64,000 nt of DNA from a virus (taxonomy: Duplodnaviria; Heunggongvirae; Uroviricota; Caudoviricetes), in the IMG/VR virus record IMGVR_UViG_2875703104_000004, one strand, 5' to 3'. Shown one piece after another: positions 5,964-57,962 of the stretch. Below the pieces are notes generated by a model. That model had not been told where the DNA came from and ran no database searches. It saw nothing but the letters and a program-made list of their open reading frames with translations. Within the stretch, counting starts at the first letter, position 1. Every line of letters begins with the position of its first letter. Position numbers and translations under genes: made by a program.

Positions 5964-5970
5964 GGACGAT

Positions 5971-22646: not shown

Positions 22647-24689
22647 TCTTTCACACATTATTGCAGCAGCATTCAATGAACCGCTGCTTCTGGAGCCCGC
22701 CTATGCGCGGGTTTTCTTTTGCGCGCTCGGGCGCGAGATGGGGGCAGCAAGTCTTTCGGTACCGCAACAGCAGGTACAGCTTGATGCTCCCGGGATGCTG
22801 GCTGAAACGGACGAGTACATGGCCGGAGGTAAACGACCGGCCCGTGTTTACCGGGTGGTGAACGGTATTGCGGTACTGCCGGTGACCGGCACGCTGGTGC
22901 ACCGGCTGGGGGGGATGCGGCCATTTTCCGGAATGACTGGCTATGACGGCATTGTCGCCTGTCTTCAGCAGGCAATGGCAGATAGCCAGGTGCGGGGCAT
23001 ACTGCTGGACATTGACAGTCCGGGCGGGCAGGCCGCCGGCGCGTTTGACTGCGTTGACATGATTTACCGCCTCCGGCAGCAGAAGCCGGTCTGGGCACTG
23101 TGCAATGACACGGCCTGTTCTGCAGCCATGCTGCTGGCGTCGGCCTGCTCCCGACGGCTGGTTACCCAGACATCCCGTATCGGCTCCATTGGCGTGATGA
23201 TGAGCCATGTCAGCTATGCCGGTCATCTGGCGCAGGCCGGTGTGGATATCACGCTGATTTACTCAGGGGCGCACAAGGTGGATGGCAATCAGNGGTGCAC
23301 CGGCTGGGTGGTATGCGGCCATTTTCCGGAATGACAGGCTATGACGGCATTGTCGCCTGTCTTCAGCAGGCAATGGCGGATAGCCAGGTGCGGGGCGTAC
23401 TGCTGGACATTGACAGTCCGGGCGGGCAGGCCGCCGGCGCGTTTGACTGCGCTGACATGATTTACCGCCTCCGTCAGCAGAAGCCGGTCTGGGCACTGTG
23501 CAATGACACGGCCTGTTCTGCAGCCATGCTGCTGGCGTCGGCCTGCTCCCGACGGCTGGTTACCCAGACATCCCGTATCGGCTCCATTGGCGTGATGATG
23601 AGCCATGTCAGCTATGCCGGTCATCTGGCGCAGGCCGGTGTGGATATCACGCTGATTTANNCNGGGGCGCACAAGGTGGATGGCAATCAGTTTGAAGCGT
23701 TGCCGGCAGAGGTTCGCCAGGACATGCAGCAGCGGATTGATGCGGCGCGCCGGATGTTTGCCGAAAAAGTGGCGATGTATACCGGTCTGTCTGTTGATGC
23801 CGTCACGGGAACAGAGGCTGCCGTTTTTGAAGGTCAGTCCGGCATTGAGGCCGGGCTGGCGGATGAATTAATCAATGCGTCGGATGCCATCAGTGTGATG
23901 GCCACGGCGCTGAACAGTAATGTCAGAGGAGGCACTATGCCGCAATTAACTGCAACGGAAGCCGCCGCTGCCGTTTTTGAAGGTCAGTCCGGCATTGAGG
24001 CCGGGCTGGCGGATGAATTAATCAATGCGTCGGATGCCATCAGTGTGATGGCCACGGCGCTGAACAGTAATGTCAGAGGAGGCACTATGCCGCAATTAAC
24101 TGCAACGGAAGCCGCCGTGCAGGAGAACCAGCGAGTGATGGGGATCCTGACATGCCAGGAAGCGAAAGGACGTGAACAGCTTGCCACGATGCTGGCAGGG
24201 CAACAGGGCATGAGCGTTGAACAGGCCCGGGCGATTCTGGCCGCGGCGGCACCGCAGCAGCCGGTGGCATCCGCACAGAGTGAAGCCGATCGCATTATGG
24301 CGTGTGAAGAAGCGAACGGTCGTGAACAACTGGCAGCAACGCTGGCGGCGATGCCGGAGAGGACGGTGGAAAAAGCCCGCCCGATCCTGGCTGCTTCACC
24401 GCAGGCGAATGCCGGGCCCTCACTTCGTGATCAGATCATGGCACTGGATGAGGCAAAAGGGGCTGAGGCGCAGGCTGAACAGCTGGCTGCCTGCCCGGGA
24501 ATGACTGTGGAGAGCGCCCGGGCTGTGCTGGCTGCGGGATCAGGTAAGGCAGAACCGGTCTCTGCATCCACAACCGCCCTGTTTGAACATTTCATGGCGA
24601 ACCATTCACCGGCTGCGGTCCAGGGGGGCGTGTCACAGGCGTCAGAAGACGGTGATGCGGACGTGAAAATGCTCATGGCCATGCCATGA
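22636..24689 (+). CDS. C: prohead protease / scaffold (gpC-like), second copy, with internal duplications
   Basis: Same motifs as 1234..2739; frame interrupted at n 23293 where 22896-23292 is repeated at 23294-23690; additional in-frame 150-bp tandem duplication at 23821-24120. Confidence 0.7.
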
Positions 24690-24725
24690 AGTCAGTGCTG
24701 AACATCAATACGAGGTTTTAACAAT

Positions 24726-25073
24726 ATGGTGACGAAAACCATCACTGAACAGCGTGCGGAAGTACGTATTTTTGCCGGTAATGATCCGGCTCACACCGCC
24801 ACAGGCAGCAGCGGGATTTCCTCGGCAACACCGGCACTGACACCCCTGATGCTGGATGGGGCCACCGGGAAACTGGTGGTCTGGGACGGACAGAAAGCCG
24901 GTAGTGCGGTTGGCATACTGGTACTGCCGCTTGAAGGCACAGAGGCGGTGCTGACGTATTACAAGTCGGGGACCTTTGCGACGGAGGCAATCCGCTGGCC
25001 TGAAAGTGTGGATGAACACAAAAAGGCCAACGCCTTTACCGGCAGTGCCCTGAGTCACGCGGCGCTGCCGTAA
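24726..25073 (+). CDS. D: head decoration protein (gpD-like)
   Basis: Paralogue of 2776..3123 with a few substitutions. Confidence 0.8.
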   Translation: MVTKTITEQRAEVRIFAGNDPAHTATGSSGISSATPALTPLMLDGATGKLVVWDGQKAGSAVGILVLPLEGTEAVLTYYKSGTFATEAIRWPESVDEHKKANAFTGSALSHAALP

Positions 25074-25130
25074 CACGTTATCAGGCCACCGCGTTGGCCT
25101 GACTGATTTCTTAATGAAAGGAACTGATTT

Positions 25131-26159
25131 ATGGGATTGTTTACGACCCGCCAGTTACTCGGTTATACCGAACAAAAAGTGAAATTCCGTGCGCTGTTTC
25201 TGGAGCTGTTTTTCCGCCGTACGGTGAATTTCCACACCGAAGAGGTGATGCTGGACAAAATTACCGGAAAAACGCCGGTGGCGGCCTATGTCTCCCCGAT
25301 CGTTGAAGGAAAAGTGCTTCGCCATCGCGGTGGTGAAACCCGCGTGTTACGTCCGGGCTACGTCAAGCCCAAACACGAATTTAATTACCAGCAGGCGGTT
25401 GAGCGCCTTCCTGGTGAAGATCCGGCTCAGCTGAACGACCCGGCCTACCGTCGTCTGCGTATCATTACCGATAACCTCAAACAGGAAGAGCACGCCATTG
25501 TCCAGGTGGAAGAAATGCAGGCGGTGAATGCCGTGCTGTATGGCAAATACACCATGGAAGGGGATCAGTTTGATACTGTCGAGGTGGATTTCGGGCGCTC
25601 TGAAGGAAATAACATTGAGCAGGCTGACGGTAAAAAATGGTCTGAGCAGGACCGTGATACGTTTGATCCGACGCATGATATTGACCTCTACTGCGATCAG
25701 GCCAGCGGCCTTGTGAATATCGCCATTATGGACGGTACGGTCTGGCGTCTGCTGAATGGCTTTAAGCTGTTCCGCGAAAAACTGGATACCCGTCGCGGCT
25801 CAAATTCACAACTCGAAACGGCAGTGAAAGACCTGGGGGCGGTGGTGTCCTTCAAGGGGTATTACGGCGATCTGGCCATTGTGGTGGCGAAAACGTCTTA
25901 TGTGGCAGAGGACGGTACCGAAAAACGTTATCTGCCGGAGGGCACACTGGTCCTGGGGAATACGGCAGCAGAGGGCATTCGTTGCTATGGTGCCATTCAG
26001 GATGCGCAGGCGTTGTCCGAAGGTGTGGTGGCCTCTTCCCGTTATCCGAAACACTGGCTGACCGTGGGCGATCCGGCCCGTGAATTCACCATGACGCAGT
26101 CCGCACCGCTGATGGTGCTGCCGGATCCGGATGAGTTTGTGGTGGTACAGGTGAAATAA
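25131..26159 (+). CDS. E: major capsid protein (gpE-like)
   Basis: 342-aa paralogue of 3181..4209. Confidence 0.9.
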   Translation: MGLFTTRQLLGYTEQKVKFRALFLELFFRRTVNFHTEEVMLDKITGKTPVAAYVSPIVEGKVLRHRGGETRVLRPGYVKPKHEFNYQQAVERLPGEDPAQLNDPAYRRLRIITDNLKQEEHAIVQVEEMQAVNAVLYGKYTMEGDQFDTVEVDFGRSEGNNIEQADGKKWSEQDRDTFDPTHDIDLYCDQASGLVNIAIMDGTVWRLLNGFKLFREKLDTRRGSNSQLETAVKDLGAVVSFKGYYGDLAIVVAKTSYVAEDGTEKRYLPEGTLVLGNTAAEGIRCYGAIQDAQALSEGVVASSRYPKHWLTVGDPAREFTMTQSAPLMVLPDPDEFVVVQVK

Positions 26160-26165
26160 TCCGTG

Positions 26166-26196
26166 AGCGGGGGCGAAATGCCCCCGTGTCTTTTTT
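26166..26196 (+). terminator. terminator-like hairpin downstream of E (second copy)
   Basis: Same gcggggg-cgaaatg-cccccg hairpin plus TTTTTT as at 4216-4246. Confidence 0.55.
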
Positions 26197-26210
26197 CACA
26201 GGAGGCTGAG

Positions 26211-26594
26211 ATGGCAACAAAAGAAGAAAATCTGAATCGTCTTCGTCAACTGGCTGGCCTGCTGGGGCGCGAGGCGGATATGTCGGGGAGTGCTGCGGAT
26301 ATTGCTCAACGTGTGTCTGAGTGGGAAGAGGAGCTTGCTGTTTCCCCGGAGGGCATTATGCACTCTGATGAGAGCGGGGCTGATCAAAATCACACAGACG
26401 ATGGTGAGCAGTTGCACAACACTGATGCTACGGATGATGTTAAAGCGGTCCGTGTGCGGAAATGCCTGCATGTGATGGGGTATTGCCCGGAGACAGGCCG
26501 TCCCGTTGAACTGACGTACCGGGGCATGCGTGTTATGGTGCCATCACCACTGGCGACAGCCATGATACAGCACGGAACGGCTGAGCATGCGTGA
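26211..26594 (+). CDS. FI: FI-like DNA packaging protein, diverged C-terminus
   Basis: Starts MATKEENLNRL; acidic; position between E and FII. Confidence 0.65.
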   Translation: MATKEENLNRLRQLAGLLGREADMSGSAADIAQRVSEWEEELAVSPEGIMHSDESGADQNHTDDGEQLHNTDATDDVKAVRVRKCLHVMGYCPETGRPVELTYRGMRVMVPSPLATAMIQHGTAEHA

Positions 26595-26940
26595 TTTTCA
26601 GAATGCCTTTGATGCTGCCCTTGCCGGGGTGGACAGCACGATTGTTGAAGTGATGGGGATCCGTGCGCAGTTCACCTCCGGAGCACAACGTGGCGGCGAA
26701 GTTCAGGGGGTTTTTGACGATCCGGAGTCGCTGGGTTTTGCCGGTGGCGGGGTCCGTATTGAAGGAAGCAGCCCGTCATTATTTGTGCGGACGGATACGG
26801 TGCGTGCCGTGCGGCGTGGTGACACGCTGACCATTAACGGCGAGATGTTCTGGGTGGATCGTGTTTCTCCGGATGACGGGGGAAGCTGTTATCTCTGGCT
26901 CAACCGTGGGCAACCACCCGCTGTTAACCGGCGACGATAA
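26587..26940 (+). CDS. FII: head-tail joining protein FII
   Basis: Paralogue of 4628..4981. Confidence 0.85.
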   Translation: MRDFQNAFDAALAGVDSTIVEVMGIRAQFTSGAQRGGEVQGVFDDPESLGFAGGGVRIEGSSPSLFVRTDTVRAVRRGDTLTINGEMFWVDRVSPDDGGSCYLWLNRGQPPAVNRRR

Positions 26941-26955
26941 ACGCAGGGTGAAATT

Positions 26956-27489
26956 ATGGCGATAAAAGGGCTTGATCAGGCGATTGATAATCTGAGCCGG
27001 GTTCGTAAAAACGCCATTCCGGCGGCTTCAGCAATGGCCATTAACCGCGTGGCCACAACGGCGATTAATCAGTCTTCATCACAGGTTGCCCGGGAGACAA
27101 AGGTACGCCGGAAACTGGTAAAGGAACGGTCCAGACTGAAACGGGCGACGGTCAGAAATCCGAACGCAAAAATTATCGTTAACCGCGGTGATCTTCCAGT
27201 GATTAAGCTGGGGATCAGGATGCTGGGCCGTCGTCCGAACAGCATACTTAAAGCCGGTCAGCATCGGTATCAGCGGGCATTCATTCAGCGATTAAAAAAC
27301 GGTCGCTGGCATGTCATGCAGCGTGTGGCCGGGAAAAACCGTTACCCTATTGATGTGGTGAAAATCCCGATGGCGGCCCCACTGAAACAGGCGTTTGATG
27401 AGAATGTTGACCGTATCCGGCGTGAACGCCTGCCCGGAGAACTGGCATCCGCGCTGAAACAACAACTGAGGATTGCGATAAAACGATGA
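26956..27489 (+). CDS. Z: minor tail protein Z
   Basis: Paralogue of 4993..5571. Confidence 0.85.
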   Translation: MAIKGLDQAIDNLSRVRKNAIPAASAMAINRVATTAINQSSSQVARETKVRRKLVKERSRLKRATVRNPNAKIIVNRGDLPVIKLGIRMLGRRPNSILKAGQHRYQRAFIQRLKNGRWHVMQRVAGKNRYPIDVVKIPMAAPLKQAFDENVDRIRRERLPGELASALKQQLRIAIKR

Positions 27490-27881
27490 AACACACTGAC
27501 ATTCGTGCCGCAGTGCTGGATGCACTCGAGCAGCATGAACACGGGGCGACGCTGTTTGATGGTCGCCCCGTTGTTTTTGACGAAGAGGATTTTCCTGCGA
27601 TCGCGGTTTATCTGACGGATGCAGAGTATACCGGTGAAGAGCTGGATGCAGATACCTGGCGGGCCACGCTGCATATTGAGGTGTTTTTACCGGCACAGGT
27701 ACCGGATTCAGAGCTTGATCAGTGGATGGAAAGCCGGATTTACCCGGCGATGACCGCGATCCCGGCACTGGCAGGACTGATTACCACGATGGTTACGCAG
27801 GGCTATGAGTATCGTCGTGATGACGATATGGCGTTATGGAGTTCTGCAGATCTGACTTATTCCATTACATACGAGATGTGA
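27486..27881 (+). CDS. U: minor tail protein U
   Basis: Paralogue of 5568..5963. Confidence 0.85.
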
Positions 27882-27888
27882 GGACGAT

Positions 27889-28635
27889 ATGGCAACACCA
27901 AATCCCCTTGAGCCGGTAAAAGGTGCCGGTACCACTCTGTGGGTTTACAACGGCAAGGCTGATGCTTATGCAAACCCGTTGTCAGACGATGGCTGGCAGC
28001 GACTGGCTAAGGTGAAGGATCTGACGCCGGGCGAGATGACGGCTGAACCCTACGATGATAACTACCTGGATGATGAAGACGCGGACTGGACCGCGACCGG
28101 GCAGGGACAGAAATCTGCAGGTGATACCAGTTTTACGCTGGCCTGGAAACCGGGAGAGGAAGGCCAGAAAGGGCTTATAGGCTGGTTTGAAAGCGGCGAT
28201 GTCCGGGCCTATAAAATCCGTTTTCCGAATGGCACGGTGGATGTGTTTCGTGGCTGGGTCAGCAGTATCGGTAAGGCCGTGACGGCGAAAGAAGTGATCA
28301 CCCGCACGGTGAAAGTCACTAACGTGGGTAAACCTTCTGTAGCGGAAGAACGCAGCAAAATTACGCCGGTCACTGCGATTAAGGTGACGCCGACAGGTAC
28401 GGTTGAAAAAGGGAAAACAACCACCCTGACCGTTACTGTGGAACCGGAAAATGCAACGGATAAGACATTCAGGGCGATTTCCGCCGATCCATCAAAAGCC
28501 ACCATTAGCGTGAAAGATATGACGATTACTGTGGCGGGGGTTAAGGATGGAAAAGTCAGCATCCCTGTGATTTCCGGTAATGGTCAGTTTGCTGCGGTGG
28601 CTGAAATTACCGTTAATAATGTGCCGGGTGGCTAA
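27889..28635 (+). CDS. V: major tail protein V with Ig-like C-terminal domain
   Basis: Paralogue of 5971..6711; the C-terminal Ig-like part is more diverged than the tube domain. Confidence 0.85.
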
Positions 28636-28653
28636 AGAGCTGAGAGATAAGCG

Positions 28654-29085
28654 ATGTTCCTGAAAACAGAACAATTTGAATATAACGGTGTATCCGTCAC
28701 GCTTTCTGAGCTGTCTGCGCTGCAGCGTATTGAGCATCTTGCCCTCCTGAAACGGCGGGCAGAAGAGGCTGAAGCCAGCGGCAACCTGCAGGTGAGTGTG
28801 GAAGATCTTGTCAGAACCGGCGCGTTTCTGGTGGCGATGTCCCTGTGGCATAACCATCCACAGAAAACGCAGTCACCGTCAATGAATGAGGCCGTGATGA
28901 AGATAGAGCAGGAAGTGCTCACCACCTGGCCTGCCGATGCCATTGCCCGGGCGGAAGACGTGGTGTTGTGCCTGTCCGGGATGATCGAAGCTGTTCGTCC
29001 GGATACTGATATTACTGAAGTGGCGAAAAATAACACGCTGACTGATGATGATTTTTCTGCGGGAAAGTCTTCGACGGCGAGCTGA
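28654..29085 (+). CDS. G: tail assembly chaperone G
   Basis: Paralogue of 6727..7149; GGGAAAG slippery heptamer at 29061-29067. Confidence 0.8.
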   Translation: MFLKTEQFEYNGVSVTLSELSALQRIEHLALLKRRAEEAEASGNLQVSVEDLVRTGAFLVAMSLWHNHPQKTQSPSMNEAVMKIEQEVLTTWPADAIARAEDVVLCLSGMIEAVRPDTDITEVAKNNTLTDDDFSAGKSSTAS

Positions 29086-29111
29086 ACTTTGCCCTCAGAC
29101 TGGCGCGTGAG

Positions 29112-29525
29112 ATGGGGAGACCCGACTGGCGCGCCATGCTTGCCGGGATGACATCCACCGAATATGCCGACTGGCACCGTTTTTACCGCACGCATTATTT
29201 TCAGGATACCCAGCTGGATATGCATTTTTCCGGGCTGACGTACGCTGTACTCAGCCTGTTTTTTTGCGATCCGGATATGCATCCCTCTGATTTCAGTCTG
29301 CTTGTCCCCCGGCATGAGGAAGAGCAGGTGGAGAGGCCGGATGAGGACAAAATGCTGATGCAGAAAGCGGCAGGACTTGCCGGAGGCGTCCGGTTCGGTG
29401 GGGACGGAGGGCGCGATATTTTATCGTCTGTGGATGTGGCGGATGTCATGGTGGATGATGCCGCATTAATGATGGCTTCAGCGGGGATTCCGGGAGGTGT
29501 GAGATATGTCCCAGCCGGTTGGTGA
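29112..29525 (+). CDS. T: T segment of the G-T frameshift fusion
   Basis: -1 frame relative to G, entered at the GGGAAAG at 29061-29067. Confidence 0.75.
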   Translation: MGRPDWRAMLAGMTSTEYADWHRFYRTHYFQDTQLDMHFSGLTYAVLSLFFCDPDMHPSDFSLLVPRHEEEQVERPDEDKMLMQKAAGLAGGVRFGGDGGRDILSSVDVADVMVDDAALMMASAGIPGGVRYVPAGW

Positions 29526-32217
29526 TCTTGTTATTGACCTGAGTCTGGATGCTGTCCGTTTCGATGAGCAGATGAGCCGGGTAAGGCGTCATTTTTCAGG
29601 TCTGGATACCGACGCCAGAAAAACCGCCAGTGCTGTTGAACAGGGCCTGAGCCGCCAGGCGCTGGCTGCACAAAAAGCCGGGATTTCCGTCGGGCAGTAT
29701 AAAGCGGCCATGCGAACCCTGCCCGCACAGTTTACGGATATCGCCACGCAGCTTGCCGGTGGTCAGAATCCCTGGCTGATCCTGCTGCAACAGGGCGGTC
29801 AGGTGAAGGACTCCTTCGGCGGGATGATCCCCATGTTCAGGGGGCTTGCCGGTGCGATCACCCTGCCGATGGTCGGGGTCACCTCGCTGGCGGTGGCGAC
29901 AGGTGCGCTGGTGTACGCCTGGTACCAGGGAGATTCCACGCTTTCAGCGTTTAATAAAACCCTGGTTCTTTCCGGTAATCAGTCCGGACTGACTGCCGAT
30001 CGCATGCTGACGCTCTCCAGAGCCGGACAGGCCGCAGGGCTGACGTTTAACCAGGCGAGTGAGTCACTGGCAGCCCTGGTGAATGCCGGTGTGCGTGGTG
30101 GTGAACAGTTTGATGCCATCAACCAGAGTGTCGCGCGTTTTGCTTCTGCATCCGGTGTGGAGGTGGACAAGGTTGCAGAGGCTTTCGGAAAACTGACCAC
30201 TGACCCGACGTCGGGGCTGATTGCGATGGCGAAGCAGTTCCATAACGTGACGGCGGAGCAGATTGCGTATGTTGCTCAGTTGCAGCGTTCCGGCGATGAA
30301 GCCGGGGCATTGCAGGCGGCGAACGAGGCCGCAACGAAAGGGTTTGATGACCAGACCCGACGCTTGAAAGAGAACATGGGCACGCTGGAAACCTGGGCAG
30401 ACAGGACAGCACGGGCATTCAAATCCATGTGGGATGCGGTGCTGGATATTGGTCGTCCTGATACCGCGCAGGAGATGCTGATTAAGGCAGAGGCCGCGTT
30501 TAAGAAAGCGGACGATATCTGGAATCTGCGCAAGGATGATTATTTTGTTAACGATGAAGCGCGGGCGCGTTACTGGGATGATCGTGAAAAGGCCCGTCTT
30601 GCGCTTGAAGCCGCCCGAAAGAAGGCTGAGCAGCAGAGTCAACAGGACAAAAATGCGCAGCAGCAGAGCGATACCGAAGCGTCACGGCTGAAATATACCG
30701 AAGAGGCGCAGAAGGCTTACGAACGGCTGCAGACGCCGCTGGAGAAATATACCGCCCGTCAGGAAGAACTGAACAAGGCACTGAAAGACGGGAAAATCCT
30801 GCAGGCGGATTACAACACGCTGATGGCGGCGGCGAAAAAGGATTATGAAGCGACGCTGAAAAAGCCGAAACAGTCCGGCGTGAAGGTGTCTGCGGGCGAT
30901 CGTCAGGAAGACAGTGCTCATGCTGCCCTGCTGACGCTTCAGGCNGAACTCCGGACGCTGGAGAAGCATGCCGGAGCAAATGAGAAAATCAGCCAGCAGC
31001 GCCGGGATTTGTGGAAGGCGGAGAGTCAGTTCGCGGTACTGGAGGAGGCGGCGCAACGTCGCCAGCTGTCTGCACAGGAGAAATCCCTGCTGGCGCATAA
31101 AGATGAGACGCTGGAGTACAAACGCCAGCTGGCTGCACTTGGCGACAAGGTTACGTATCAGGAGCGCCTGAACGCGCTGGCGCAGCAGGCGGATAAATTC
31201 GCACAGCAGCAACGGGCAANNNNNNNNNNNNNNNNNNNNNTGGCGCATAAAGATGAGACGCTGGAGTACAAACGCCAGCTGGCTGCACTTGGCGACAAGG
31301 TTACGTATCAGGAGCGCCTGAACGCGCTGGCGCAGCAGGCGGATAAATTCGCACAGCAGCAACGGGCAAAACGGGCCGCCATTGATGCGAAAAGCCGGGG
31401 GCTGACTGACCGGCAGGCAGAACGGGAAGCCACGGAACAGCGCCTGAAGGAACAGTATGGCGATAATCCGCTGGCGCTGAATAACGTCATGTCAGAGCAG
31501 AAAAAGACCTGGGCGGCTGAAGACCTGCTTCGCGGGAACTGGATGGCAGGCCTCAGGTCCGGCTGGAGTGAGTGGGAAGAGAGTGCCACGGACAGTATGT
31601 CGCAGGTAAAAAGTGCAGCCACGCAGACCTTTGACGGTATTGCACAGAATATGGCAGCGATGCTGACCGGCAGCGAACAGAACTGGCGTGGTTTCACCCG
31701 TTCTGTGCTGTCCATGCTGACAGAGATTTTTCTGAAGCAGGCGATGGTGGGGATTGTCGGGAGTATCGGCAGCGCTATTGGCGGGGCTGTTGGTGGCGGC
31801 GCATCCGCGTCAGGCGGTACAGCCATTCAGGCCGCTGCGGCGAAATTCCATTTTGCAACCGGAGGATTTACGGGAACCGGCGGCAAATATGAGCCAGCGG
31901 GGATTGTTCACCGTGGTGAATTTGTCTTCACGAAGGAGGCAACCAGCCGGATTGGTGTCGGCAACCTGTATCGTCTGATGCGCGGGTATGCGGAAGGTGG
32001 TTATGTCGGCGGTGCCGGAAGTCCGGCGCAGATGCGGCGGGCCGAAGGTATTAATTTTAATCAGAACAATCACGTGGTGATTCAGAACGACGGTATCAAC
32101 GGACAGGCGGGGTCGCAGCTGATGAAGGCGGTGTATGACATGGCCCGCAAGGGGGCACAGGATGAACTCCGGCTGCAGTTGCGTGATGGCGGTCTGTTAT
32201 CAGGGAGCGGTCGATGA
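29506..32217 (+). CDS. H: tail tape measure protein H (contains an N-run and a redundant block)
   Basis: 903-aa ORF paralogous to 7558..10054; N-run at 31220-31240 flanked by duplicated ~132-bp blocks. Confidence 0.8.
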   Translation: MSQPVGDLVIDLSLDAVRFDEQMSRVRRHFSGLDTDARKTASAVEQGLSRQALAAQKAGISVGQYKAAMRTLPAQFTDIATQLAGGQNPWLILLQQGGQVKDSFGGMIPMFRGLAGAITLPMVGVTSLAVATGALVYAWYQGDSTLSAFNKTLVLSGNQSGLTADRMLTLSRAGQAAGLTFNQASESLAALVNAGVRGGEQFDAINQSVARFASASGVEVDKVAEAFGKLTTDPTSGLIAMAKQFHNVTAEQIAYVAQLQRSGDEAGALQAANEAATKGFDDQTRRLKENMGTLETWADRTARAFKSMWDAVLDIGRPDTAQEMLIKAEAAFKKADDIWNLRKDDYFVNDEARARYWDDREKARLALEAARKKAEQQSQQDKNAQQQSDTEASRLKYTEEAQKAYERLQTPLEKYTARQEELNKALKDGKILQADYNTLMAAAKKDYEATLKKPKQSGVKVSAGDRQEDSAHAALLTLQXELRTLEKHAGANEKISQQRRDLWKAESQFAVLEEAAQRRQLSAQEKSLLAHKDETLEYKRQLAALGDKVTYQERLNALAQQADKFAQQQRAXXXXXXXXAHKDETLEYKRQLAALGDKVTYQERLNALAQQADKFAQQQRAKRAAIDAKSRGLTDRQAEREATEQRLKEQYGDNPLALNNVMSEQKKTWAAEDLLRGNWMAGLRSGWSEWEESATDSMSQVKSAATQTFDGIAQNMAAMLTGSEQNWRGFTRSVLSMLTEIFLKQAMVGIVGSIGSAIGGAVGGGASASGGTAIQAAAAKFHFATGGFTGTGGKYEPAGIVHRGEFVFTKEATSRIGVGNLYRLMRGYAEGGYVGGAGSPAQMRRAEGINFNQNNHVVIQNDGINGQAGSQLMKAVYDMARKGAQDELRLQLRDGGLLSGSGR

Positions 32218-32543
32218 AAACCTTTCGCTGGAAAGTGAAGCCGGATATGGAGGTGAACTCGCAGCCATCGGTGCGTGAAGTGCGTTTTGGTGACGGGTAC
32301 TCACAGCGTATGGCGGCAGGGCTGAATGCTGACCTGAAAACATACAGGGTGACGCTTTCCGTGACCCGGGAGGAGGCCCGGCATCTGGAAGCGTTCCTGG
32401 CAGAGCACGGTGGCTGGAAGGCATTTTTGTGGAAGCCACCCTATGCATACCGGCAGATAAAGGTGACCTGTGCCGGGTGGTCTGCGCGGGTCGGGATGTT
32501 GCGCGTTGAGTTCAGCGCGGAGTTTAAGCAGGTGGTGAACTGA
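32214..32543 (+). CDS. M: minor tail protein M
   Basis: Paralogue of 10051..10380. Confidence 0.85.
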   Translation: MKTFRWKVKPDMEVNSQPSVREVRFGDGYSQRMAAGLNADLKTYRVTLSVTREEARHLEAFLAEHGGWKAFLWKPPYAYRQIKVTCAGWSARVGMLRVEFSAEFKQVVN

Positions 32544-33178
32544 TGCAGGATATTCGCGAAGAAAGTCTGAACGAGTCGGTTAAGTCAGAGCAGTCACCGC
32601 GGGTGGTACTCTGGGAAATCGACCTGACGGTACAGGGTGGTGAGCGGTATTTTTTCTGTAATGAGCTGAATGAAAAAGGGGAGCCGGTCACCTGGCAGGG
32701 GCGTAAGTATGAGGCATACCCGATTGACGGCAGCGGCTTTGAGATGAACGGCCGGGGCAGCAGTGCCAGACCGTCGCTGACGGTGTCGGTCCGCCGCCGG
32801 GTGTATGCCCGTTTTCTGGATGCGGTGAATTTCGTTGCGGGCAATCCGGAGGCGGACCCGGAGCAGGAGCTGAGTGACCGCTGGGTGGTGGAGCAGATGT
32901 CGCAGCTGACAGCCATGACGGCCTCGTTTGTGCTGGCTACACCGACCGAGACGGACGGGGCGCTGTTTCCCGGTCGCATCATGCTGGCGAACACCTGTAT
33001 GTGGGATTACCGGGGAGATGAATGCGGGTATAACGGTCCTGCGGTGGCGGATGAGTTCGATAAACCCACCACGGATATCCGTAAGGACAGATGCAGCAAG
33101 TGCATGCGCGGGTGTGAACTGCGCAGGAATGTCGGCAATTTTGGCGGTTTCCTTTCCATTAATAAACTTTCGCAGTAA
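32543..33178 (+). CDS. L: minor tail protein L (21 codons shorter than the other copies)
   Basis: 211-aa ORF; lacks the segment NLFGLVTGMAEDLQSLVGATV present in the other L copies. Confidence 0.75.
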   Translation: MQDIREESLNESVKSEQSPRVVLWEIDLTVQGGERYFFCNELNEKGEPVTWQGRKYEAYPIDGSGFEMNGRGSSARPSLTVSVRRRVYARFLDAVNFVAGNPEADPEQELSDRWVVEQMSQLTAMTASFVLATPTETDGALFPGRIMLANTCMWDYRGDECGYNGPAVADEFDKPTTDIRKDRCSKCMRGCELRRNVGNFGGFLSINKLSQ

Positions 33179-33374
33179 ATCCCGGTTTATGAGGCAGTCT
33201 GTGTTATGTATCTTCTTTCGGGTGGGTACAGGGCAGTGCGCGATTTCTGGCGCAGGCAGATTGATAAAAGGGCCGCTGAGAGAATCAGCGCCAGTCAGTC
33301 AGCCGGAAGCAAACCCGAAGATCCGCTCATTCCGTAGTCACTTTCTTGACAACACCTTTCAACGAGAAAATCCC

Positions 33375-35312: not shown

Positions 35313-35807
35313 ATGAACCGCGTACTGTGCGTGGTCATCATTGCCCTGCTGGTGGCCTGTGGTGCGCTTAGTCTGGGGCTGAATCATTACCGTGATAACG
35401 CCATAACCTACAAAGCCCAGCGCGACAAAAATGTCAGAGAACTGAAGCTGGCGAACGCGGCAATTACTGACATGCAGATGCGTCAGCGTGATGTTGCTGC
35501 GCTCGATGCAAAATACTCGAGGGAATTAGCCGATGCGAGAGCTGAAAATGAAACTCTTCGCGCTGACGTTGCCGCTGGTCGTAAGCGCCTGCGTATCAAC
35601 GCCACCTGTCCAGGTCCCGTGCGTGAAGCCACCGGTACCGCCCGCGTGGATAATGCAACCGGCCCCCAACTGGCAGACACCGCTGAACGGGATTATTTCA
35701 TCCTCAGAGAACGGCTGATGACAATGCAGAAGCAGCTGGAAGGGGCGCAGGAATATATCCGCACTCAGTGCACTAAGCTGGCTTTTTATTATCCGGAGGA
35801 TACATGA
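35313..35807 (+). CDS. Rz: i-spanin Rz
   Basis: N-terminal TM segment then [42 protein letters not shown], coiled-coil rich, as in lambda Rz. Confidence 0.85.
35533..35718 (+). CDS. Rz1: o-spanin Rz1, embedded in the +1 frame of Rz
   Basis: [15 protein letters not shown] lipobox, then Pro-rich [27 protein letters not shown]. Confidence 0.8.
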
Positions 35808-36028
35808 AGAAATTACGGGTAACCGTAGAACCTTTTCAGGGAACAATTCCGTTCCGTATTTTGCAGCGTGGTCGTGTTCTTGTTGAAGGTTCGTTCAGTG
35901 GTAAATGTACGCAATTACACTCCCGGACCTTTCAGGTGAATGCCACGAATGAAGAGCTAACCGTGGAGTGTACGATGAATGCCGCTAAATGCCGCATGGT
36001 ATCCGCTGCATTACAGCCAGTGTGTTGA
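35804..36028 (+). CDS. hypothetical protein overlapping the Rz stop
   Basis: 74-aa ORF whose ATG overlaps the Rz stop (ATGA); no signal peptide; no family recognised. Confidence 0.35.
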
Positions 36029-36226
36029 GCGACCTTATTATCCATGCGCGGTATTGTCGCCGTATTCCTGCATTAACAGAGACCGCAGCCCGACAGGGAG
36101 ACTCCTCTGCGCGAGTGTGCGGGGATAATCAAAAACGATACACACCGGGGTTTACCGCGTTAACGGAGCGCGGCGTTGTCCCCTCATAGTCGCCTGTCCG
36201 GTGCGATGGTGGAAGAAACCGAACGT

Positions 36227-36427
36227 TCATTTCTCGTTATTTGTCATGCTGGTCGGGCGCAGATGCGTTGCATCTGTTGCCAGCCTTCTCCTGCAGGCTT
36301 CAATAACCCACGCTGAAAAGTTACCGGACCCTTTATGCTCAAGGGCTATGTTGATTTGTTCAATTATGTGATTGGGGAAACGGATATTGCGGGTTGTGGT
36401 TCTGCGGGTCCGGTTTTTCGATGACAT
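36227..36427 (-). CDS. small basic protein, possible ribbon-helix-helix DNA-binding protein
   Basis: 66-aa ORF MSSKNRTRRTTTRNIRFPNHIIEQINIALEHKGSGNFSAWVIEACRRRL with AGGA RBS 7 nt upstream; divergent from the HNH gene. Confidence 0.35.
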   Translation of the reverse strand: MSSKNRTRRTTTRNIRFPNHIIEQINIALEHKGSGNFSAWVIEACRRRLATDATHLRPTSMTNNEK

Positions 36428-36468
36428 ATTTATTTCCTTTACTGATTGCCATATGACGGGGATTTTAC

Positions 36469-36834
36469 ATGGCTGAGCTTCGTACACTCCAGAGCAGAAT
36501 CAAAACACTGAATACCCGACGGGTGAATATTCTGAAGGGGGAACAGCGTCGTGTCAGTGGCAGTGCACGTGTTTCCCTCAAGCGTCATATCTGGCTGAGG
36601 GACGCCGGGCAGTGCTGTATCTGTGGTCGTGTGGTTGACCTCTGTGACAGTGAACTCGATCACCGAATTGCACTTCAGTTCGGTGGTGGTAATGAGGAGA
36701 CGAATCTCTGGACGCTCTGTACCGAATGCCATCGACAAAAGTCTGCTCGTGAAGCGGCGGGTGGTATGCCGGACCCGACGCTGCCGGAGGTGTCCGGAGG
36801 TAGTGACAGAGCGGACGACATCATCGGACTGTAA
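36469..36834 (+). CDS. HNH endonuclease, packaging-associated type
   Basis: CCICG..(n)..DHRIALQFGG..NLWTLCTECHRQK is an HNH zinc-finger nuclease motif; located immediately upstream of the terminase genes. Confidence 0.8.
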   Translation: MAELRTLQSRIKTLNTRRVNILKGEQRRVSGSARVSLKRHIWLRDAGQCCICGRVVDLCDSELDHRIALQFGGGNEETNLWTLCTECHRQKSAREAAGGMPDPTLPEVSGGSDRADDIIGL

Positions 36835-36926
36835 CCCGACCCGGGGGGGGTATCATCCGGCGTAAAAAACGATCGCTTTGGACACCGCGCCCCCTCTCAC
36901 GCAGAGAAAAAATTCCCGTTTCAGGG

Positions 36927-37052
36927 CAGTTAACATGTTAACTGGCTGCCCGGGCATTTTTGCGGTTTTTATCTTTATTATTCAGTTTGTTGTGCGGAAA
37001 AAATGTTAACAGGCTTTTTCAGCAAATGTTAACCAGGCAGCAGTTAACATTT
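36927..37052. promoter_or_regulatory. cluster of GTTAAC-containing repeats (candidate cos / terminase recognition region)
   Basis: 18-bp palindrome cagttaacatgttaactg at 36927-36944, aaatgttaac at about 37001 and 37024, inverted copy gttaacattt at about 37043. Confidence 0.45.
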
Positions 37053-37125
37053 GCGGCATGAGACGCCGGGGAAAAATGGGCTGAACCATACCCGGCTGAG
37101 TGCGTTCTGGACCCGGGAGGAGGCT

Positions 37126-37689
37126 GTGCTGACAACGCAAAAACGAAAATTTGCGCTGGCGCTCATGTCCGGGAAAAACAAAACAGCGTCAGCCATTGCC
37201 GCCGGTTATTCGGCGAAGACCGCCAGGGTTAAAGGCTCGCAGCTGGCAAAAGATCCGGAGGTGCTTGCGTTTATAGCCCGTAAACAATGCGAGACGGTGG
37301 AGGTGGATGAGGTTCCTGTTTACCGGCAGAAAAAATCAGAGCAGGAGGATAAACCCCGTCGCCGTGAGGCGGCTGCAATACCTCAGCCGGACGAAAATAA
37401 TCCGGAGATGCCACCGTCCGCGGTGATGTCTCCTGGTATTGAATATATGGAGGATGGTCTTCCCGATCCGGTGAAAGCCATGGGGCGGATCCTGGTGGAA
37501 AACCTCTGCATTGATCCGAAACTGGCACTGGATGCGGCCTGGCGTCTGGCGCAGTTCACGCACCATAAAAAAGGGGATACCGGGAAAAAATCGGCAAAAG
37601 GTGATGCCGCGAAAAAAGCGGCTAACCGTTTTGCGGTGCCACCGCCACCCCGACTGGTGGTGAATAACGATAATGAGGGCAACGGATGA
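37126..37689 (+). CDS. terminase small subunit
   Basis: GTG start after GGGAGGAGG; TTQKRKFALALMSGKNKTASAIAAGYSAKTARVKGSQLAKDPEV is the typical TerS HTH. Confidence 0.75.
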   Translation: MLTTQKRKFALALMSGKNKTASAIAAGYSAKTARVKGSQLAKDPEVLAFIARKQCETVEVDEVPVYRQKKSEQEDKPRRREAAAIPQPDENNPEMPPSAVMSPGIEYMEDGLPDPVKAMGRILVENLCIDPKLALDAAWRLAQFTHHKKGDTGKKSAKGDAAKKAANRFAVPPPPRLVVNNDNEGNG

Positions 37690-46976: not shown

Positions 46977-49900
46977 ATGGCGACGTTACGTGAACTGATT
47001 ATCAAAATTTCGGCAAATTCGCAGTCATTCCAGTCGGAGATCCAGCGGGCTTCCCGCATGGGCAGTGAATATTATCGGACCCTGCAGAATGGCGGGCGTC
47101 AGGCTGCCGCAGTCGCCCGGGAGCAGCGACGCGCCCTGGCTGAGCTGAACAGCCAGTTGACGGAAATCCGCGCTTCAGCTGCCGGAACGGCGGGGGCATT
47201 TGCCGGTGCCTTTGCCACCGGGCACCTGATTTCTCTGGCCGATGAATGGAGTTCCGTGAATGCCCGACTGAAACAGGCGTCGCAGTCATCCGATGAATTT
47301 TCGTCATCACAGAAAGTGCTGATGGATATCAGCCAGCGGACGGGCACGGCATTTTCAGATAATGCGGCCCTGTTTGCCCGCTCGGCAGCCTCAATGCGTG
47401 AATATGGTTACAGTGCTGATGATGTGCTGAAGGTGACGGAGGCCATTTCGACAGGACTGAAACTGTCAGGGGCTGGAGTTGCGGAATCCGGTTCGGTGAT
47501 CACCCAGTTCAGCCAGGCACTGGCACAGGGTGTACTGCGTGGCGAAGAATTTAATGCTGTTAACGAAAATGGCGACCGGGTGATCCGCGCGCTTGCTGCG
47601 GGGATGGGTGTGGCCCGTAAAGATCTGAAGGCAATGGCGGATGACGGAAAACTGACAGCGGATAAAGTGGTCCCTGCGTTAATCAGCCAGCTGGGGATAT
47701 TACGTGATGAATATGCGGCCATGCCGGAAACGGTTTCCGGTAGTATCACGAAGGTGGAAAACGCCTTTATGGCCTGGGTGGGCGGTGTGAATGAAGCCAG
47801 CGGCTCGACGAAAACGCTCTCCGGCGTGCTGAATGGTGTGGCCGGACATATTGATGCAGTGGCAACAGCAGCGGGGGCGCTGGTTGCCGTCGGGGTTGCC
47901 CGGTACTTTGGCAATATGGCCTCCGGAGCGGTGTCTGCCACGGCAGGACTTGTGACGGCAGCACGTAATGAAGTGGCACTGGCGGAAGCACAGCTCAGGG
48001 GGACGCAGATTGCCACGGCGCGGGCAAGGGCAGCCGTGTACCGTGCACAGCAGGCTGTGGCGGCAGCCCGCGGGACGGAGATGCAGATTGCTGCAGAAGC
48101 CCGTCTGGCGGCCACACAGGAACGCCTGAACAGAAATATTGCTGCCAGAACCGCAGCCCAGAATGCGCTGAACAGTACAACGGCGGTGGGTTCACGTCTG
48201 ATGACTGGTGCGTTGGGACTGGTTGGTGGCGTACCCGGACTGGTGATGCTGGGGGCAGCAGCATGGTATACGCTGTACCAGAATCAGGAGCAGGCCAGGG
48301 AGTCAGCGCGCCAGTATGCACTGACGATAGATGAAATCGCGCATAAAACGCCGTCAATGTCTTTGCCTGAAGCCTCAGATAATGAAGGACGAACACGGGC
48401 GGCGCTGACAGAGCAGAACCGGCTGATTGATGAACAGGCCAGCCGGGTGAAATCCCTGCAGGAAAAAATCGCTGGATATCAGTATGTTCTGGCTAACCCT
48501 GGCTGGACAACCGGTGACGGATTCATGATAAACCATCTGACATCGGTGAAGACCGTAACGGAAGGGCTTTCTCAGGCAACAGAGCAGCTTGCCGTTGAGC
48601 AGTCCCGTCTGGCACAGATGCAGGAAAAAGCGCAGTCCATTCAGGATGTGCTTGCCGGGCTGGAAGACCGTCGTGTGGCGTTAATTCGTCAGCAGGCGGC
48701 AGAGCAGAATAAGGTGTACCAGTCCATGCTGGTTATGAACGGTCAGCATACGGAATTCAACCGTCTGCTGGGGCTGGGGAATGAACTGCTTCAGCAGCGG
48801 CAGGGACTGGTGAATGTGCCGTTACGGCTGCCACAGACCACTCTGGATAATAAACAGCAGAGCGCCCTGACAAAAACAGAGCGTGAGCTGGCCCTGTCCA
48901 GACTGAAAGGGGAAGAAAAAGAGCGTGCCCGGCTGGGGTATGCGGCCGATGACCTCGGTTTTGTGGGGGATTCGTATCAGGAGGCGAGACAGCGTTATAT
49001 CAGTAATGCTCTGGAAGCCTGGCGTAATAACGAGGCGAACAAACCTAAATCCCGGGGTGGAAAATCAGAGACGGAAAAAGCGGAAGACAGTTTTTCCCGG
49101 CTACTGAAACAGCAGAAAGAGCAACTGGCACTGGCGGGTCAGAATACAGAACTGGCGAAGCTGAAGTACCAGACTGCGCAGGGAGAACTGAAAACCCTGA
49201 CGGAGATGCAGAAGCAGGAACTGCTGCGTAACGCGGCCCTGATTGACCAGCAAAAAATCCGGGAACAGTTGCGATCCCGGGAAGAGACCCTGAAGAATGA
49301 TAATGTGGCTGCGCGTGCATCAAATGAAGCCGAACTGCTGGGGTACGGGCAGGGAGAACGAGCCAGGGAACGCATGCGGGAGTTGCAGCAGATCCGCGAC
49401 AGCTTCCGCCAGAAGGATGCGGACCTTCAGTCTCAGTATCAGACCGGGGATATCAGTGAGGATTTTTACAGACAGGCACGGGCACAGAACGCGCAGTATC
49501 TGAGCGAACGCCTTAAGGACCAGGCAGCCTTTTATGCCGAATCGGATGCGCAGCGTGCGGACTGGCAGAAAGGCTTGCAGGAGGGGCTCAGTAACTGGGT
49601 GGACAATGCATCCGATTACGCCTCTCAGGCAGCACAGCTGGCAACGGAGGGGATTTCAGGACTGGTGAATAACATCACGGAGATGCTGAACGGAAACAAA
49701 GTGGAATGGCGCAACTGGGCCTCATCCGTACTGCAGGAAATCTCAAAAGTTCTTATGAATGCCGCGATTGTCAACGGAATTAAGACGGCGGCAAACGGTA
49801 TGTCCGGTGCGGGAGGATTTATTGGCAGCATTGGTGACTGGCTGGGCGGTGCGGTGGCCAATGCAAAAGGCGGCGTGTATACCTCGGCAAACCTGAGTGC

Positions 49901-52576: not shown

Positions 52577-52586
52577 ATCCCGGTTT

Positions 52587-53908: not shown

Positions 53909-54251
53909 AAAGAATAAAAAAATCCCGCAGTGATCGCGGACAGGAACTGCGGGAGAGTTACGAAGATTAAGTGTAAGGAATTATTCTTATATCACGACAA
54001 AAAAATTAACGCAGAGAAATTATACGCGCCACAGTCAGTTTGTGAAAATGTGAAGATATTCAGAATTTTTATGCCATTACCGGTTTTAACCAACAGGATT
54101 ATCGGTGGGCATGAAAGAAAACCCCGGTATCTGCTGATACCGGGGTTTCTCTTTAGCATGGCAGAAATGTGTTTCATGCTTTTCGGGCGAAGGATATCCG
54201 ACTTCTGTACGGAATGGCAAGTGGCGGTTAATTTATTCAGGGGAAGGCTGT

Positions 54252-57944: not shown

Positions 57945-57962
57945 ATTTTATAACCCCAATAC

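What the first reader, a model, noticed from the sequence alone, without database searches (positions are those of the whole stretch)
36227..36427. Small basic DNA-binding-like protein encoded divergently 41 bp from the HNH gene
The 66-aa minus-strand ORF has a basic N-terminus followed by a pattern compatible with a ribbon-helix-helix fold (NIRFPNHIIEQINIALEHKG..FSAWVIEACRRRL). Its start is only 41 bp from the HNH start on the other strand, so two promoters would have to overlap; it could regulate packaging-gene or late-gene expression.
Basis: inference. Interest (0 to 1): 0.4.

Follow-up and report, generated by a model that had tools for sequence, protein, structure and literature searches.

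The report
Known YlcI/YnfO prophage protein, Arc-like fold
The 66-residue minus-strand ORF is a real, strongly conserved gene of the already catalogued YlcI/YnfO (DUF3950) family of E. coli prophages, probably a small Arc-like ribbon-helix-helix DNA-binding protein, but nothing shows that it controls the neighbouring HNH and packaging genes.

Summary
ORF 36227..36427 (-) encodes a 66-aa basic protein (pI 11.5). It has its own Shine-Dalgarno sequence and starts 41 bp from the HNH start.

It is not new. The region is 100% identical to E. coli ABU 83972, where RefSeq names it "YlcI/YnfO family protein". It matches Pfam DUF3950 (E=3e-19), NCBIfam NF041551 and PHROG 949.

It is a real gene: dN/dS over codons 1-50 is 0.03-0.05 against K-12 ylcI and ynfO.

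The ribbon-helix-helix reading is supported but not proven:
- AF2 gives an extended segment followed by two helices.
- Nearly all named Foldseek hits are RHH proteins, but none is significant.
- hhalign aligns NIRFP with Arc's NLRWP (P=0.0016).
- Eleven of 20 family members weakly hit a HicB-like PHROG, and one hits an Arc-like repressor PHROG.

The proposed regulation of HNH or packaging genes is not supported. The same 50-aa core sits beside unrelated terminase types, including in phage lambda itself (an unannotated ORF 199 bp from cos), and the upstream DNA there is unrelated. No conserved promoter or operator was found. HNH most likely rides the late operon.

In P4-like/PICI-like satellites, homologues sit divergent from the primase operon, next to operator-like repeats. 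That position favours a repressor role. The function remains untested.

The parts
36227..36427 (-). ylcI/ynfO-family (DUF3950) CDS, 66 aa plus stop codon
   Evidence: ORF. Pfam, NCBIfam and PHROG matches. RefSeq annotation WP_001304598.1. dN/dS 0.03-0.05.
36278..36427 (-). Conserved core, codons 1-50 (basic arm plus predicted ribbon-helix-helix). DNA similarity to lambda, DLP12 and Qin copies starts exactly at the ATG and ends near codon 48-50.
   Evidence: blastn 36282-36427 at 82-84% identity. Alignments A1 and A2 have invariant I15, R16, I25, F37, W40 and V41.
36374..36391 (-). Residues 13-18 (RNIRFP), the predicted beta-strand. By alignment to Arc, N14 and R16 correspond to N11 and R13, and I15 and F17 would be core residues.
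   Evidence: Extended segment in the AF2 model. hhalign register against Arc and the Arc family. Which Arc residues contact DNA is from my own knowledge.
36332..36373 (-). Residues 19-32, predicted helix A
   Evidence: AF2 with DSSP.
36263..36319 (-). Residues 37-55, predicted helix B, preceded by the G-S-G-N turn (residues 33-36)
   Evidence: AF2 with DSSP. N36, S38, A39, A44 and C45 are nearly invariant.
36230..36277 (-). Residues 51-66, a hypervariable tail. Many different tails are joined to near-identical cores in E. coli homologues. The part beyond about residue 55 is modelled with low confidence.
   Evidence: Sequences. Mean pLDDT is 65 for residues 51-60 and 47 for 61-66. Similarity to Stx-phage copies starts near 36273.
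36435..36439 (-). Shine-Dalgarno sequence AAGGA of ylcI
   Evidence: Sequence. The other spacer allele keeps GAGGAAAG.
36428..36468 (.). 41-bp spacer between the two start codons. The ylcI-proximal half is variable. The HNH-proximal half (GGATTTTAC, then ATG) is conserved and carries the HNH ribosome-binding site.
   Evidence: Alignment of 7 phage and prophage copies.
36469..36834 (+). HNH endonuclease gene, the neighbour, of the type found beside terminase genes
   Evidence: Pfam HNH E=3.8e-7 and PHROG 589. RefSeq annotation.

Best explanation
The ORF is a bona fide member of the YlcI/YnfO (DUF3950) family. This family is carried by lambdoid prophages, including lambda itself, at the right end of the genome just before the cos and terminase region, and it is read against the late operon. 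The protein most likely folds as an Arc-like ribbon-helix-helix dimer. In that model the basic N-terminal arm (KNRTRRTTTR) and the strand RNIRF would contact DNA, the two helices would form the dimer core, and the C-terminal tail would be a poorly constrained appendage exchanged by recombination. I infer that it acts as a small sequence-specific repressor made from its own leftward transcript in the lysogen, as an accessory (moron-type) regulator, rather than as a dedicated controller of the adjacent HNH gene. HNH and the terminase genes are most likely read as part of the late operon. Shown here: the gene is real and under strong purifying selection, it belongs to the family, its position is conserved, the predicted topology is RHH-like, and the K-12 homologue is transcribed. 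Inferred: dimerisation, DNA binding, repressor activity and the target.
For: Family membership is shown. Purifying selection on the core (dN/dS 0.03-0.05) is shown. The Arc register is, with the Arc sequence confirmed. The position is conserved and opposite to all neighbours in ABU 83972, DLP12, Qin, lambda and Stx phages. In P4-like/PICI-like satellites (L002, L053, L063) the homologue is the lone gene divergent from the small-ORF-to-primase operon. The 200-400 bp spacers there are full of operator-like repeats directly upstream of the gene, which is the classic layout of an autoregulated repressor. K-12 ylcI is transcribed: a ybcW-ylcI convergent excludon was found in at least 50% of RNA-seq samples (PMC12288877). 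The 13-kb late region is otherwise co-oriented.
Against: No statistically significant structural or sequence match to any solved RHH protein was found (Foldseek E at least 0.6-1.2; PDB phmmer and hmmsearch found nothing). Pfam RHH models are not hit even at E up to 10. The hhalign probability is only 16%. The AF2 model is a monomer, so the defining intermolecular ribbon cannot be seen. No conserved promoter or operator was found near the gene in this prophage or in lambda. No functional study of the family was found. The satellite repeats could belong to another regulator.
Confidence: 0.55

Rival explanations
1. One reading: YlcI is a local regulator of the HNH, terminase or late genes. It would act at overlapping divergent promoters in or around the 41-bp spacer.
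For: The genes are divergent and the 41-bp spacing is conserved. Any ylcI promoter must lie inside the 5' end of HNH. The fold is RHH-like. The HNH-proximal half of the spacer is conserved.
Against: The same core, with an identical RNIRF strand, lies next to unrelated lambda-type terminases with unrelated upstream DNA. There are no repeats or palindromes in 36428-36620. The predicted minus-strand promoter and the TGAATA repeat are not conserved. The conserved half of the spacer is explained by the HNH ribosome-binding site and start codon. HNH is co-oriented with the whole late operon.
Confidence: 0.15
2. YlcI is an antitoxin-like or partner-binding RHH protein. The core would bind DNA and the variable tail would neutralise or recruit a partner, for example the DUF1398 protein (YbcV, YdfO or lambdap78) that follows it in lambda-type phages.
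For: Eleven of 20 members hit the HicB-like antitoxin PHROG. ParD, TacA, AtaR, MazE9 and CopA_SO antitoxins appear among the Foldseek hits. The tail is hypervariable and partly low-confidence, as in antitoxins. ynfO is followed by ydfO on the same strand, 57 bp apart, and the ylcI-then-DUF1398 order recurs.
Against: In this window no DUF1398 gene or any conserved ORF follows. The two downstream minus-strand ORFs of 33-35 aa have no family. Tails differ even among copies followed by a DUF1398 gene. DUF1398 is not a known toxin. There are no PADLOC hits.
Confidence: 0.1
3. YlcI is a packaging- or cos-associated DNA-binding factor. It would bind near cos or interact with TerS to modulate or exclude packaging.
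For: In prophages the gene is always the last or second-to-last gene before cos and the terminase genes, and it is 199 bp from the lambda right end. A satellite protein, P0188, fuses a DUF3950 domain to a copy of the N-terminal region of exactly this TerS type (62% identity to window TerS residues 27-76).
Against: The region is reported as dispensable for lambda lytic growth (PMC10695390 table; the ORF itself was not tested there). The same core sits beside two unrelated terminase types. Distant homologues sit far from any terminase, next to cytochrome bd, fimbrial and restriction-modification genes, or in ICE-like islands. The gene is read against the late operon.
Confidence: 0.1
4. The protein is irrelevant. 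The locus would act only through antisense transcription against the late operon, or it is a spurious or decaying ORF.
For: The gene is fully antisense to the presumed late transcript. K-12 ylcI takes part in an excludon.
Against: dN/dS is 0.03-0.05 while synonymous sites are nearly saturated (pS 0.63-0.67). This means the amino-acid sequence is what is conserved, not the DNA. There is a good Shine-Dalgarno sequence. The family is conserved down to 37-45% identity in other genera.
Confidence: 0.04

Closest known systems
YlcI (DLP12) and YnfO (Qin) of E. coli K-12: Pfam PF13132 DUF3950, NCBIfam NF041551, PHROG 949
   Same: The first 49 residues differ at only 4 positions. The position just before the cos and terminase region is the same, and so is the orientation against the late genes. 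This is the family the ORF belongs to.
   Different: The C-terminal tail differs (ATDATHLRPTSMTNNEK). The neighbour is HNH plus a Terminase_2-type TerS rather than the lambda Nu1/Noh type. No DUF1398 gene follows. The family has no experimentally known function.
Arc and Mnt repressors of Salmonella phage P22 (Pfam PF03869), the archetypal small phage RHH repressors
   Same: The size is similar (about 50-residue core). The strand motif N-[IL]-R-[FW]-P is followed by helix, G-x-x-N/S turn and helix. hhalign places them in register. Arc chains are among the Foldseek hits, with TM up to 0.59 normalised by target length.
   Different: There is no significant sequence match (hhalign probability 16%; the Pfam Arc model is not hit). 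The genomic setting differs: the right end near cos rather than an immI-type antirepressor region. No operator is known. YlcI has a much more basic N-terminal arm.
RHH DNA-binding domains of type II antitoxins (HicB-like PHROG 497, ParD, CopA_SO, AtaR, MazE9)
   Same: The family gives weak but recurrent HMM hits to PHROG 497. These antitoxins appear in the Foldseek hit list. Both have a short structured core plus a variable tail.
   Different: No adjacent toxin gene exists in this prophage. The matches are limited to the DNA-binding module.
Rpp of E. coli PICIs, a mimic of the TerS DNA-binding domain that redirects packaging (PMC6739421)
   Same: The satellite homologue P0188 carries a copy of the N-terminal region of a helper-type TerS. 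This recalls the Rpp logic.
   Different: Rpp is a winged-HTH protein with a coiled-coil dimeriser and no DUF3950 domain. The window protein has no TerS-like part at all.

Membership tests
DUF3950 / YlcI-YnfO family (PF13132, NF041551, PHROG 949) | Score above the curated cutoffs of the family models | tested here: met
   Pfam 69 bits against a cutoff of 25, E=3e-19. NCBIfam 35.2 bits against 30. PHROG 949 E=1e-32 over residues 1-58.
DUF3950 / YlcI-YnfO family (PF13132, NF041551, PHROG 949) | Conserved motif (K/R)-x-IRFP ... NFSAWV(I/L)(E/D)AC | tested here: met
   Alignments A1 and A2: I15, R16, I25, F37, W40 and V41 are invariant. F17, N36, S38, A39, A44 and C45 are conserved in at least 90% of sequences.
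DUF3950 / YlcI-YnfO family (PF13132, NF041551, PHROG 949) | Annotated as such in reference genomes | tested here: met
   100% identical locus in ABU 83972, product 'YlcI/YnfO family protein', WP_001304598.1.
Ribbon-helix-helix (Arc/MetJ/CopG) superfamily | Strand, helix, turn, helix topology in about 45 residues | tested here: met
   AF2 model with mean pLDDT 75.6 (81-88 over residues 11-50): extended 14-18, helix 19-32, helix 37-55.
Ribbon-helix-helix (Arc/MetJ/CopG) superfamily | Alternating core and exposed residues in the strand, and a G-x-(S/T/N) turn before helix B (features as I recall them for this superfamily) | tested here: met
   N14-I15-R16-F17 with I15 and F17 invariant or nearly so. 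G33-S-G-N36 turn, with N36 and S38 nearly invariant.
Ribbon-helix-helix (Arc/MetJ/CopG) superfamily | Statistically significant similarity to a solved or curated RHH protein | tested here: inconclusive
   The top Foldseek hits are RHH proteins, but E is at least 1.2 in PDB and 0.6 in BFVD. hhalign against the Arc family gives P=0.0016 and probability 16%. PHROG HicB-like best E=8e-5 and Arc-like 7e-4 were obtained with the homologue P0188. Pfam RHH models and PDB sequence searches gave nothing.
Ribbon-helix-helix (Arc/MetJ/CopG) superfamily | Obligate dimer with an intermolecular two-stranded beta-ribbon that binds the DNA major groove | not testable with these tools
   Only single-chain prediction is offered. 
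Arc family proper (Pfam PF03869) | Match to the Arc model | tested here: not met
   hmmscan of 20 family members at E up to 10 gave no PF03869 hit. True Arc homologues all carry PF03869.
Type II toxin-antitoxin antitoxin | Co-oriented adjacent toxin gene in one operon | tested here: not met
   Downstream on the minus strand there are only 33- and 35-aa ORFs without any PADLOC or PHROG family. The next annotated gene is on the other strand.
Known anti-phage defence systems (PADLOC) | Match to a defence-system protein model | tested here: not met
   No hit at E up to 1 for the window protein, P0188 or P0201.

The most novel reading that the evidence does not exclude
DUF3950 may be an unrecognised Arc-like repressor module shared by lambdoid helper phages and by P4-like/PICI-like satellites. 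Lambda itself carries it as an unannotated ORF 199 bp from cos. In the satellites it sits in the master-repressor slot, divergent from the primase operon, and it is once fused to a copy of the helper-type TerS N-terminal region. RHH proteins are intertwined dimers and the cores are similar, so phage and satellite copies could cross-talk. They could form mixed dimers or share operators. That would make the phage ylcI gene a determinant of satellite induction, interference or packaging choice.
Probability: 0.1. Interest if true: 0.65.

Novelty: already known. Interest (0 to 1): 0.2.

Why it matters
The gene itself is ordinary. It is an annotated member of a widespread E. coli prophage family: 1944 of 5426 complete genomes match this locus. 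What this work adds is modest. It gives a reasoned fold assignment (Arc-like RHH) to a "domain of unknown function" found in K-12 (ylcI, ynfO), in Stx phages and, unannotated, in phage lambda. It also shows that homologues sit in a repressor-like position in phage satellites. If YlcI proves to be a repressor, it would fill a small gap in the y-ome and in the lambda gene map. It might also bear on how helper phages and satellites regulate each other.

Tried and rejected
Searches and predictions that gave nothing:
- PDB sequence searches with the protein and with the family profile found nothing useful. The only hit was ribosomal uL16 at E=1.4.
- Pfam scans of 20 family members at E up to 10 hit no RHH model.
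- PADLOC gave no hits.
- The search for related loci with the family alignment failed because no conserved stretch was long enough.
- Literature searches for ylcI, ynfO and DUF3950 found no functional study. Two lambda ribosome-profiling searches did not surface a description of this ORF.

Leads that were followed and rejected:
- Promoter scan: the only minus-strand sigma-70-like site is CTGACA-17-CAGAAT at 36557-36529. It is no better than chance (2 sites found against 1.0 +/- 0.9 expected). Its -10 element is not conserved in related phages. No minus-strand site was found upstream of lambda or DLP12 ylcI.
- The 11-mer ACACTGAATAC is shared, in opposite orientation, between the window upstream region (36505-36515) and the lambda/DLP12 upstream region. 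The flanking TGAATA...TGAATA repeat looked like an operator. Both are mutated in Stx-phage and BP-4795 copies (TGAACA, TGAATG), so I treat them as chance.
- Operator search in 36400-36620 found only two short direct repeats inside the HNH coding sequence and no inverted repeats.
- Downstream toxin search: the 33-aa and 35-aa minus-strand ORFs have no family.
- Rpp as a relative: it is a winged-HTH protein and is unrelated.
- TerI, a Listeria packaging-inhibition system, was looked at only as an analogy. No link was found.

Full report

Yes. The minus strand carries an ORF from ATG 36427 to the stop codon at 36227-36229. It encodes 66 aa: MSSKNRTRRTTTRNIRFPNHIIEQINIALEHKGSGNFSAWVIEACRRRLATDATHLRPTSMTNNEK. 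A Shine-Dalgarno sequence AAGGA lies 7 nt upstream, at 36435-36439. The HNH ORF begins at 36469, so the two start codons are 41 bp apart.

The protein is strongly basic. It has 12 K+R against 5 D+E, a pI of 11.5, and 6 K/R in the first 16 residues.

ORFs of this size are frequent by chance, but this one is a gene:
- It matches Pfam DUF3950 at E=3e-19 (69 bits, cutoff 25), NCBIfam NF041551 YlcI_YnfO_N (35.2 bits, cutoff 30) and PHROG 949 at E=1e-32.
- Codons 1-50 differ from K-12 ylcI by 23 synonymous and 6 non-synonymous changes. This gives dN/dS 0.03 against ylcI and 0.05 against ynfO, with synonymous sites close to saturation.

**2. What is it?**

The 1.3-kb stretch 35800-37100 is 100% identical to the chromosome of E. 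coli ABU 83972 and several other urinary and commensal strains. In all, 1944 of 5426 complete E. coli genomes match it. RefSeq annotates the ORF as "YlcI/YnfO family protein", WP_001304598.1.

It is the only minus-strand CDS in a 13-kb run of co-oriented genes: esterase, holin, lysozyme, Rz, HNH, TerS, TerL, capsid and portal.

The family is small, with 99 clusters at 50% identity. Many of those are frameshifted copies from noisy assemblies.

Real homologues share a near-identical 50-residue core: (K/R)-x-IRFP-(H/N)-x-LIExI...NFSAWV(I/L)(E/D)AC. Residues I15, R16, I25, F37, W40 and V41 are invariant. To this core many unrelated C-terminal tails are joined.

**3. Position in other phages**

In K-12 the family members ylcI (DLP12) and ynfO (Qin) lie 388 bp upstream of, and divergent from, the lambda-type small terminase genes nohD and nohA.

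Phage lambda itself carries an unannotated 64-aa copy, identical to YlcI, at complement 48109..48303. Its start codon is 199 bp from the right cohesive end. It follows bor, lambdap78 (DUF1398) and lambdap79.

BP-4795, YYZ-2008 and many Stx phages have the window's arrangement (ylcI, then 41 bp, then HNH, then TerS).

DNA similarity between the window and the lambda-type copies starts exactly at the ATG and stops near codon 48-50. The conserved core is therefore a mosaic module bounded by recombination joints. Its upstream DNA is unrelated in the two settings.

**4. Fold**

AF2 with a 20-sequence alignment gives mean pLDDT 75.6, and 81-88 over residues 11-50. The model has an extended segment at 14-18, helix 19-32, a G-S-G-N turn, helix 37-55, and a low-confidence end. 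This is the RHH topology as seen in a monomer.

Foldseek gives no significant hit (best E 1.2 in PDB, 0.6 in BFVD). The hit lists, however, consist almost entirely of RHH proteins:
- PDB: ParD2, the NikR N-domain, Arc, TacA, CopA_SO, MazE9, AtaR, pCXC100 ParB and YiiF.
- BFVD: mycobacteriophage "RHH DNA binding domain" proteins.

TM scores reach 0.5-0.59 on the short targets.

hhalign of the family core against P22 Arc, whose sequence was confirmed, and against an 18-member Arc alignment places NIRFP on NLRWP. The P-values are 0.0037 and 0.0016, but the probability is only 9-16%. Mnt and CopG align in the same register more weakly.

Eleven of 20 family members hit PHROG 497 (HicB-like antitoxin) at E up to 0.1, with a best value of 8e-5. 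One member hits the "Arc-like repressor" PHROGs 228 and 582.

Pfam RHH models and PDB sequence searches give nothing.

I conclude that an Arc-like RHH fold is likely, at about 0.8, but not demonstrated. Membership of the Arc family proper (PF03869) is not met.

In the Arc register, T12, N14 and R16 would face the DNA, I15 and F17 would face the core, and the basic arm KNRTRRTTTR would lie along the backbone. This last point rests on my own knowledge of the Arc-operator structure and is inference.

**5. How does it work?**

No functional study exists. The only expression evidence is for the K-12 homologue: a ybcW-ylcI convergent excludon seen in at least 50% of RNA-seq samples (PMC12288877).

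I could not support this, for four reasons:
- The gap holds both ribosome-binding sites. Its ylcI-proximal half is variable, and its conserved half is the HNH ribosome-binding site and start codon.
- The only sigma-70-like site on the minus strand (36557-36529) is at chance level and is not conserved.
- No inverted repeats or operator-like arrays occur in 36400-36620.
- An 11-mer shared with lambda's upstream region is not conserved either.

HNH needs no promoter of its own if, as in lambda, the late transcript runs through the lysis genes into the packaging genes. This follows from established knowledge of lambdoid late transcription and from the gene orientation. It was not shown here.

The identical predicted DNA-reading strand next to two unrelated terminase systems argues against a terminase-specific local operator.

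**6. Evidence from distant homologues**

Outside E. coli prophages the domain is always in mobile elements. In P4-like/PICI-like satellites it takes one consistent position. This is seen in L002 (an uncultured enterobacterial contig), Xenorhabdus L053-55 and the Pasteurella "phage" Pmp7 (L063). Where the whole locus was examined (L002, L053 and L063), the homologue is the lone gene that converges on the alpA-like/excisionase gene and diverges from the small-ORF-to-primase operon.

The 200-400 bp divergent spacers carry arrays of operator-like repeats directly upstream of the gene:
- L002: GTGCACAAACAC, five to six copies.
- Pmp7: GGTG(T/G)GCG/GTGCAC-type repeats, four copies.
- Xenorhabdus: ATTGGTACGTACC / GGTACATACCAAT.

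This is the layout of an autoregulated repressor, and it is the best indirect support for a repressor function. The repeats could still belong to another protein.

Other homologues sit beside cytochrome bd genes, between fimbrial and restriction-modification genes, or in ICE-like islands. This argues against an obligatory packaging role.

One satellite protein, P0188, fuses DUF3950 to a copy of the N-terminal region of exactly the window's TerS type (62% identity). That keeps a link to packaging or helper exploitation alive as a minority reading. PICI Rpp proteins work by mimicking the TerS DNA-binding domain, but they are winged-HTH proteins unrelated to DUF3950.

**7. Verdict**

The gene is already known and annotated as a member of the YlcI/YnfO (DUF3950) family. 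The RHH guess is probably right. The proposed regulation of HNH or packaging genes has no support.

My best mechanism is a small Arc-like dimeric repressor. It would be expressed against the late operon as an accessory regulator, and its target is unknown (confidence 0.55).

Interest is low (0.2). The most novel reading not excluded is cross-talk between phage and satellite DUF3950 repressors (probability about 0.1).

Noticed in passing
L056 2710-2904 (-), which is lambda J02459 complement 48109..48303: Phage lambda carries a 64-aa DUF3950 ORF identical to K-12 YlcI, starting 199 bp from the right cohesive end. It is not annotated in J02459, and no lambdap gene after lambdap79 appears in the CRISPRi gene table of PMC10695390.
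   Followed up: partly
L010, L013-L050; ENA proteins on contigs of about 3.5 kb: Many DUF3950 'homologues' in unrelated genomes (Cohnella, Pedobacter, an Arcanobacterium 'plasmid' of 3566 bp, Pseudomonas contigs of 48.4 kb, and others) are lambda DNA. They carry the bor, DUF1398, ybcW and ylcI order at 96-100% identity. They look like control-DNA contamination: contigs of about 3.5 kb from the lambda right end, and whole 48.5-kb genomes. They inflate the apparent host range of the family.
   Followed up: partly
L002 4714-5103 (+), protein P0188: A satellite-like element (integrase, AlpA-like gene, small ORFs, primase) encodes a 129-aa fusion. The N-terminal part is a DUF3950 domain. The C-terminal part is 62% identical to residues 27-76 of the window's TerS. 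It could be an Rpp-like device against helpers with HK97/Stx-type terminases.
   Followed up: partly
L063 4853-5032 (+), Pasteurella 'phage' Pmp7 OR544138: A 59-aa DUF3950 ORF is unannotated here. It lies antisense inside a 224-aa CDS labelled 'transcriptional repressor' (4435-5109, minus strand), which looks like a spurious call. The 10.7-kb record has a satellite gene set (integrase, primase, HNH, TerS, TerL).
   Followed up: partly
L002 4518-4692; L063 4736-4838; L053 4945-4993: Arrays of operator-like repeats lie immediately upstream of satellite DUF3950 genes, in the spacer shared with the divergent primase operon. The two satellites with a (T/K)KGIRFPH strand share GTGCAC-type motifs. 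The one with KKNIRFED has GGTAC(G/A)TACC.
   Followed up: partly
window 36926-37054: There is a dense cluster of GTTAACAT / ATGTTAAC motifs between the HNH stop (36834) and the TerS start. It includes the perfect palindrome CAGTTAACATGTTAACTG (36927-36944) and 12-nt arms GCAAATGTTAAC/GTTAACATTTGC (37022-37054). These are probably cos or TerS recognition repeats.
   Followed up: no
window 37051-37689: The longest TerS ORF starts at TTG 37051, but RefSeq starts the gene at the position equivalent to 37126. The Pfam Terminase_2 match begins at residue 27 of the long form, which supports the shorter gene.
   Followed up: no
window 35804-36028 (+): This 74-aa ORF after Rz matches only positions 100-172 of the 291-position PHROG 2571 and overlaps a feature labelled 'putative Dnase' in related phage records. 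It appears to be a gene fragment.
   Followed up: no
window 1-33200 and 50800-60000: The window is a composite. Two lambda-like head-tail modules repeat (1-10600 against 21400-32800, 82-99% identity). There are local 100% duplications (50904-51536 equals 52072-52704; 32788-33192 occurs three times). There are 28 runs of N, mostly single bases and two of 21 nt. This suggests stitched or mis-assembled prophage sequence. The finding's own region is intact (100% match to ABU 83972).
   Followed up: partly
L004 3757-4458; L010-L012, L041, L042, L044: In several lambda-type contexts the DUF3950 gene is followed on the same strand by a DUF1398 gene (ydfO or ybcV type). The gap is 57 bp in Qin and roughly 100-140 bp elsewhere by tblastn coordinates. 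They may form an operon. That gene is absent from this window.
   Followed up: no
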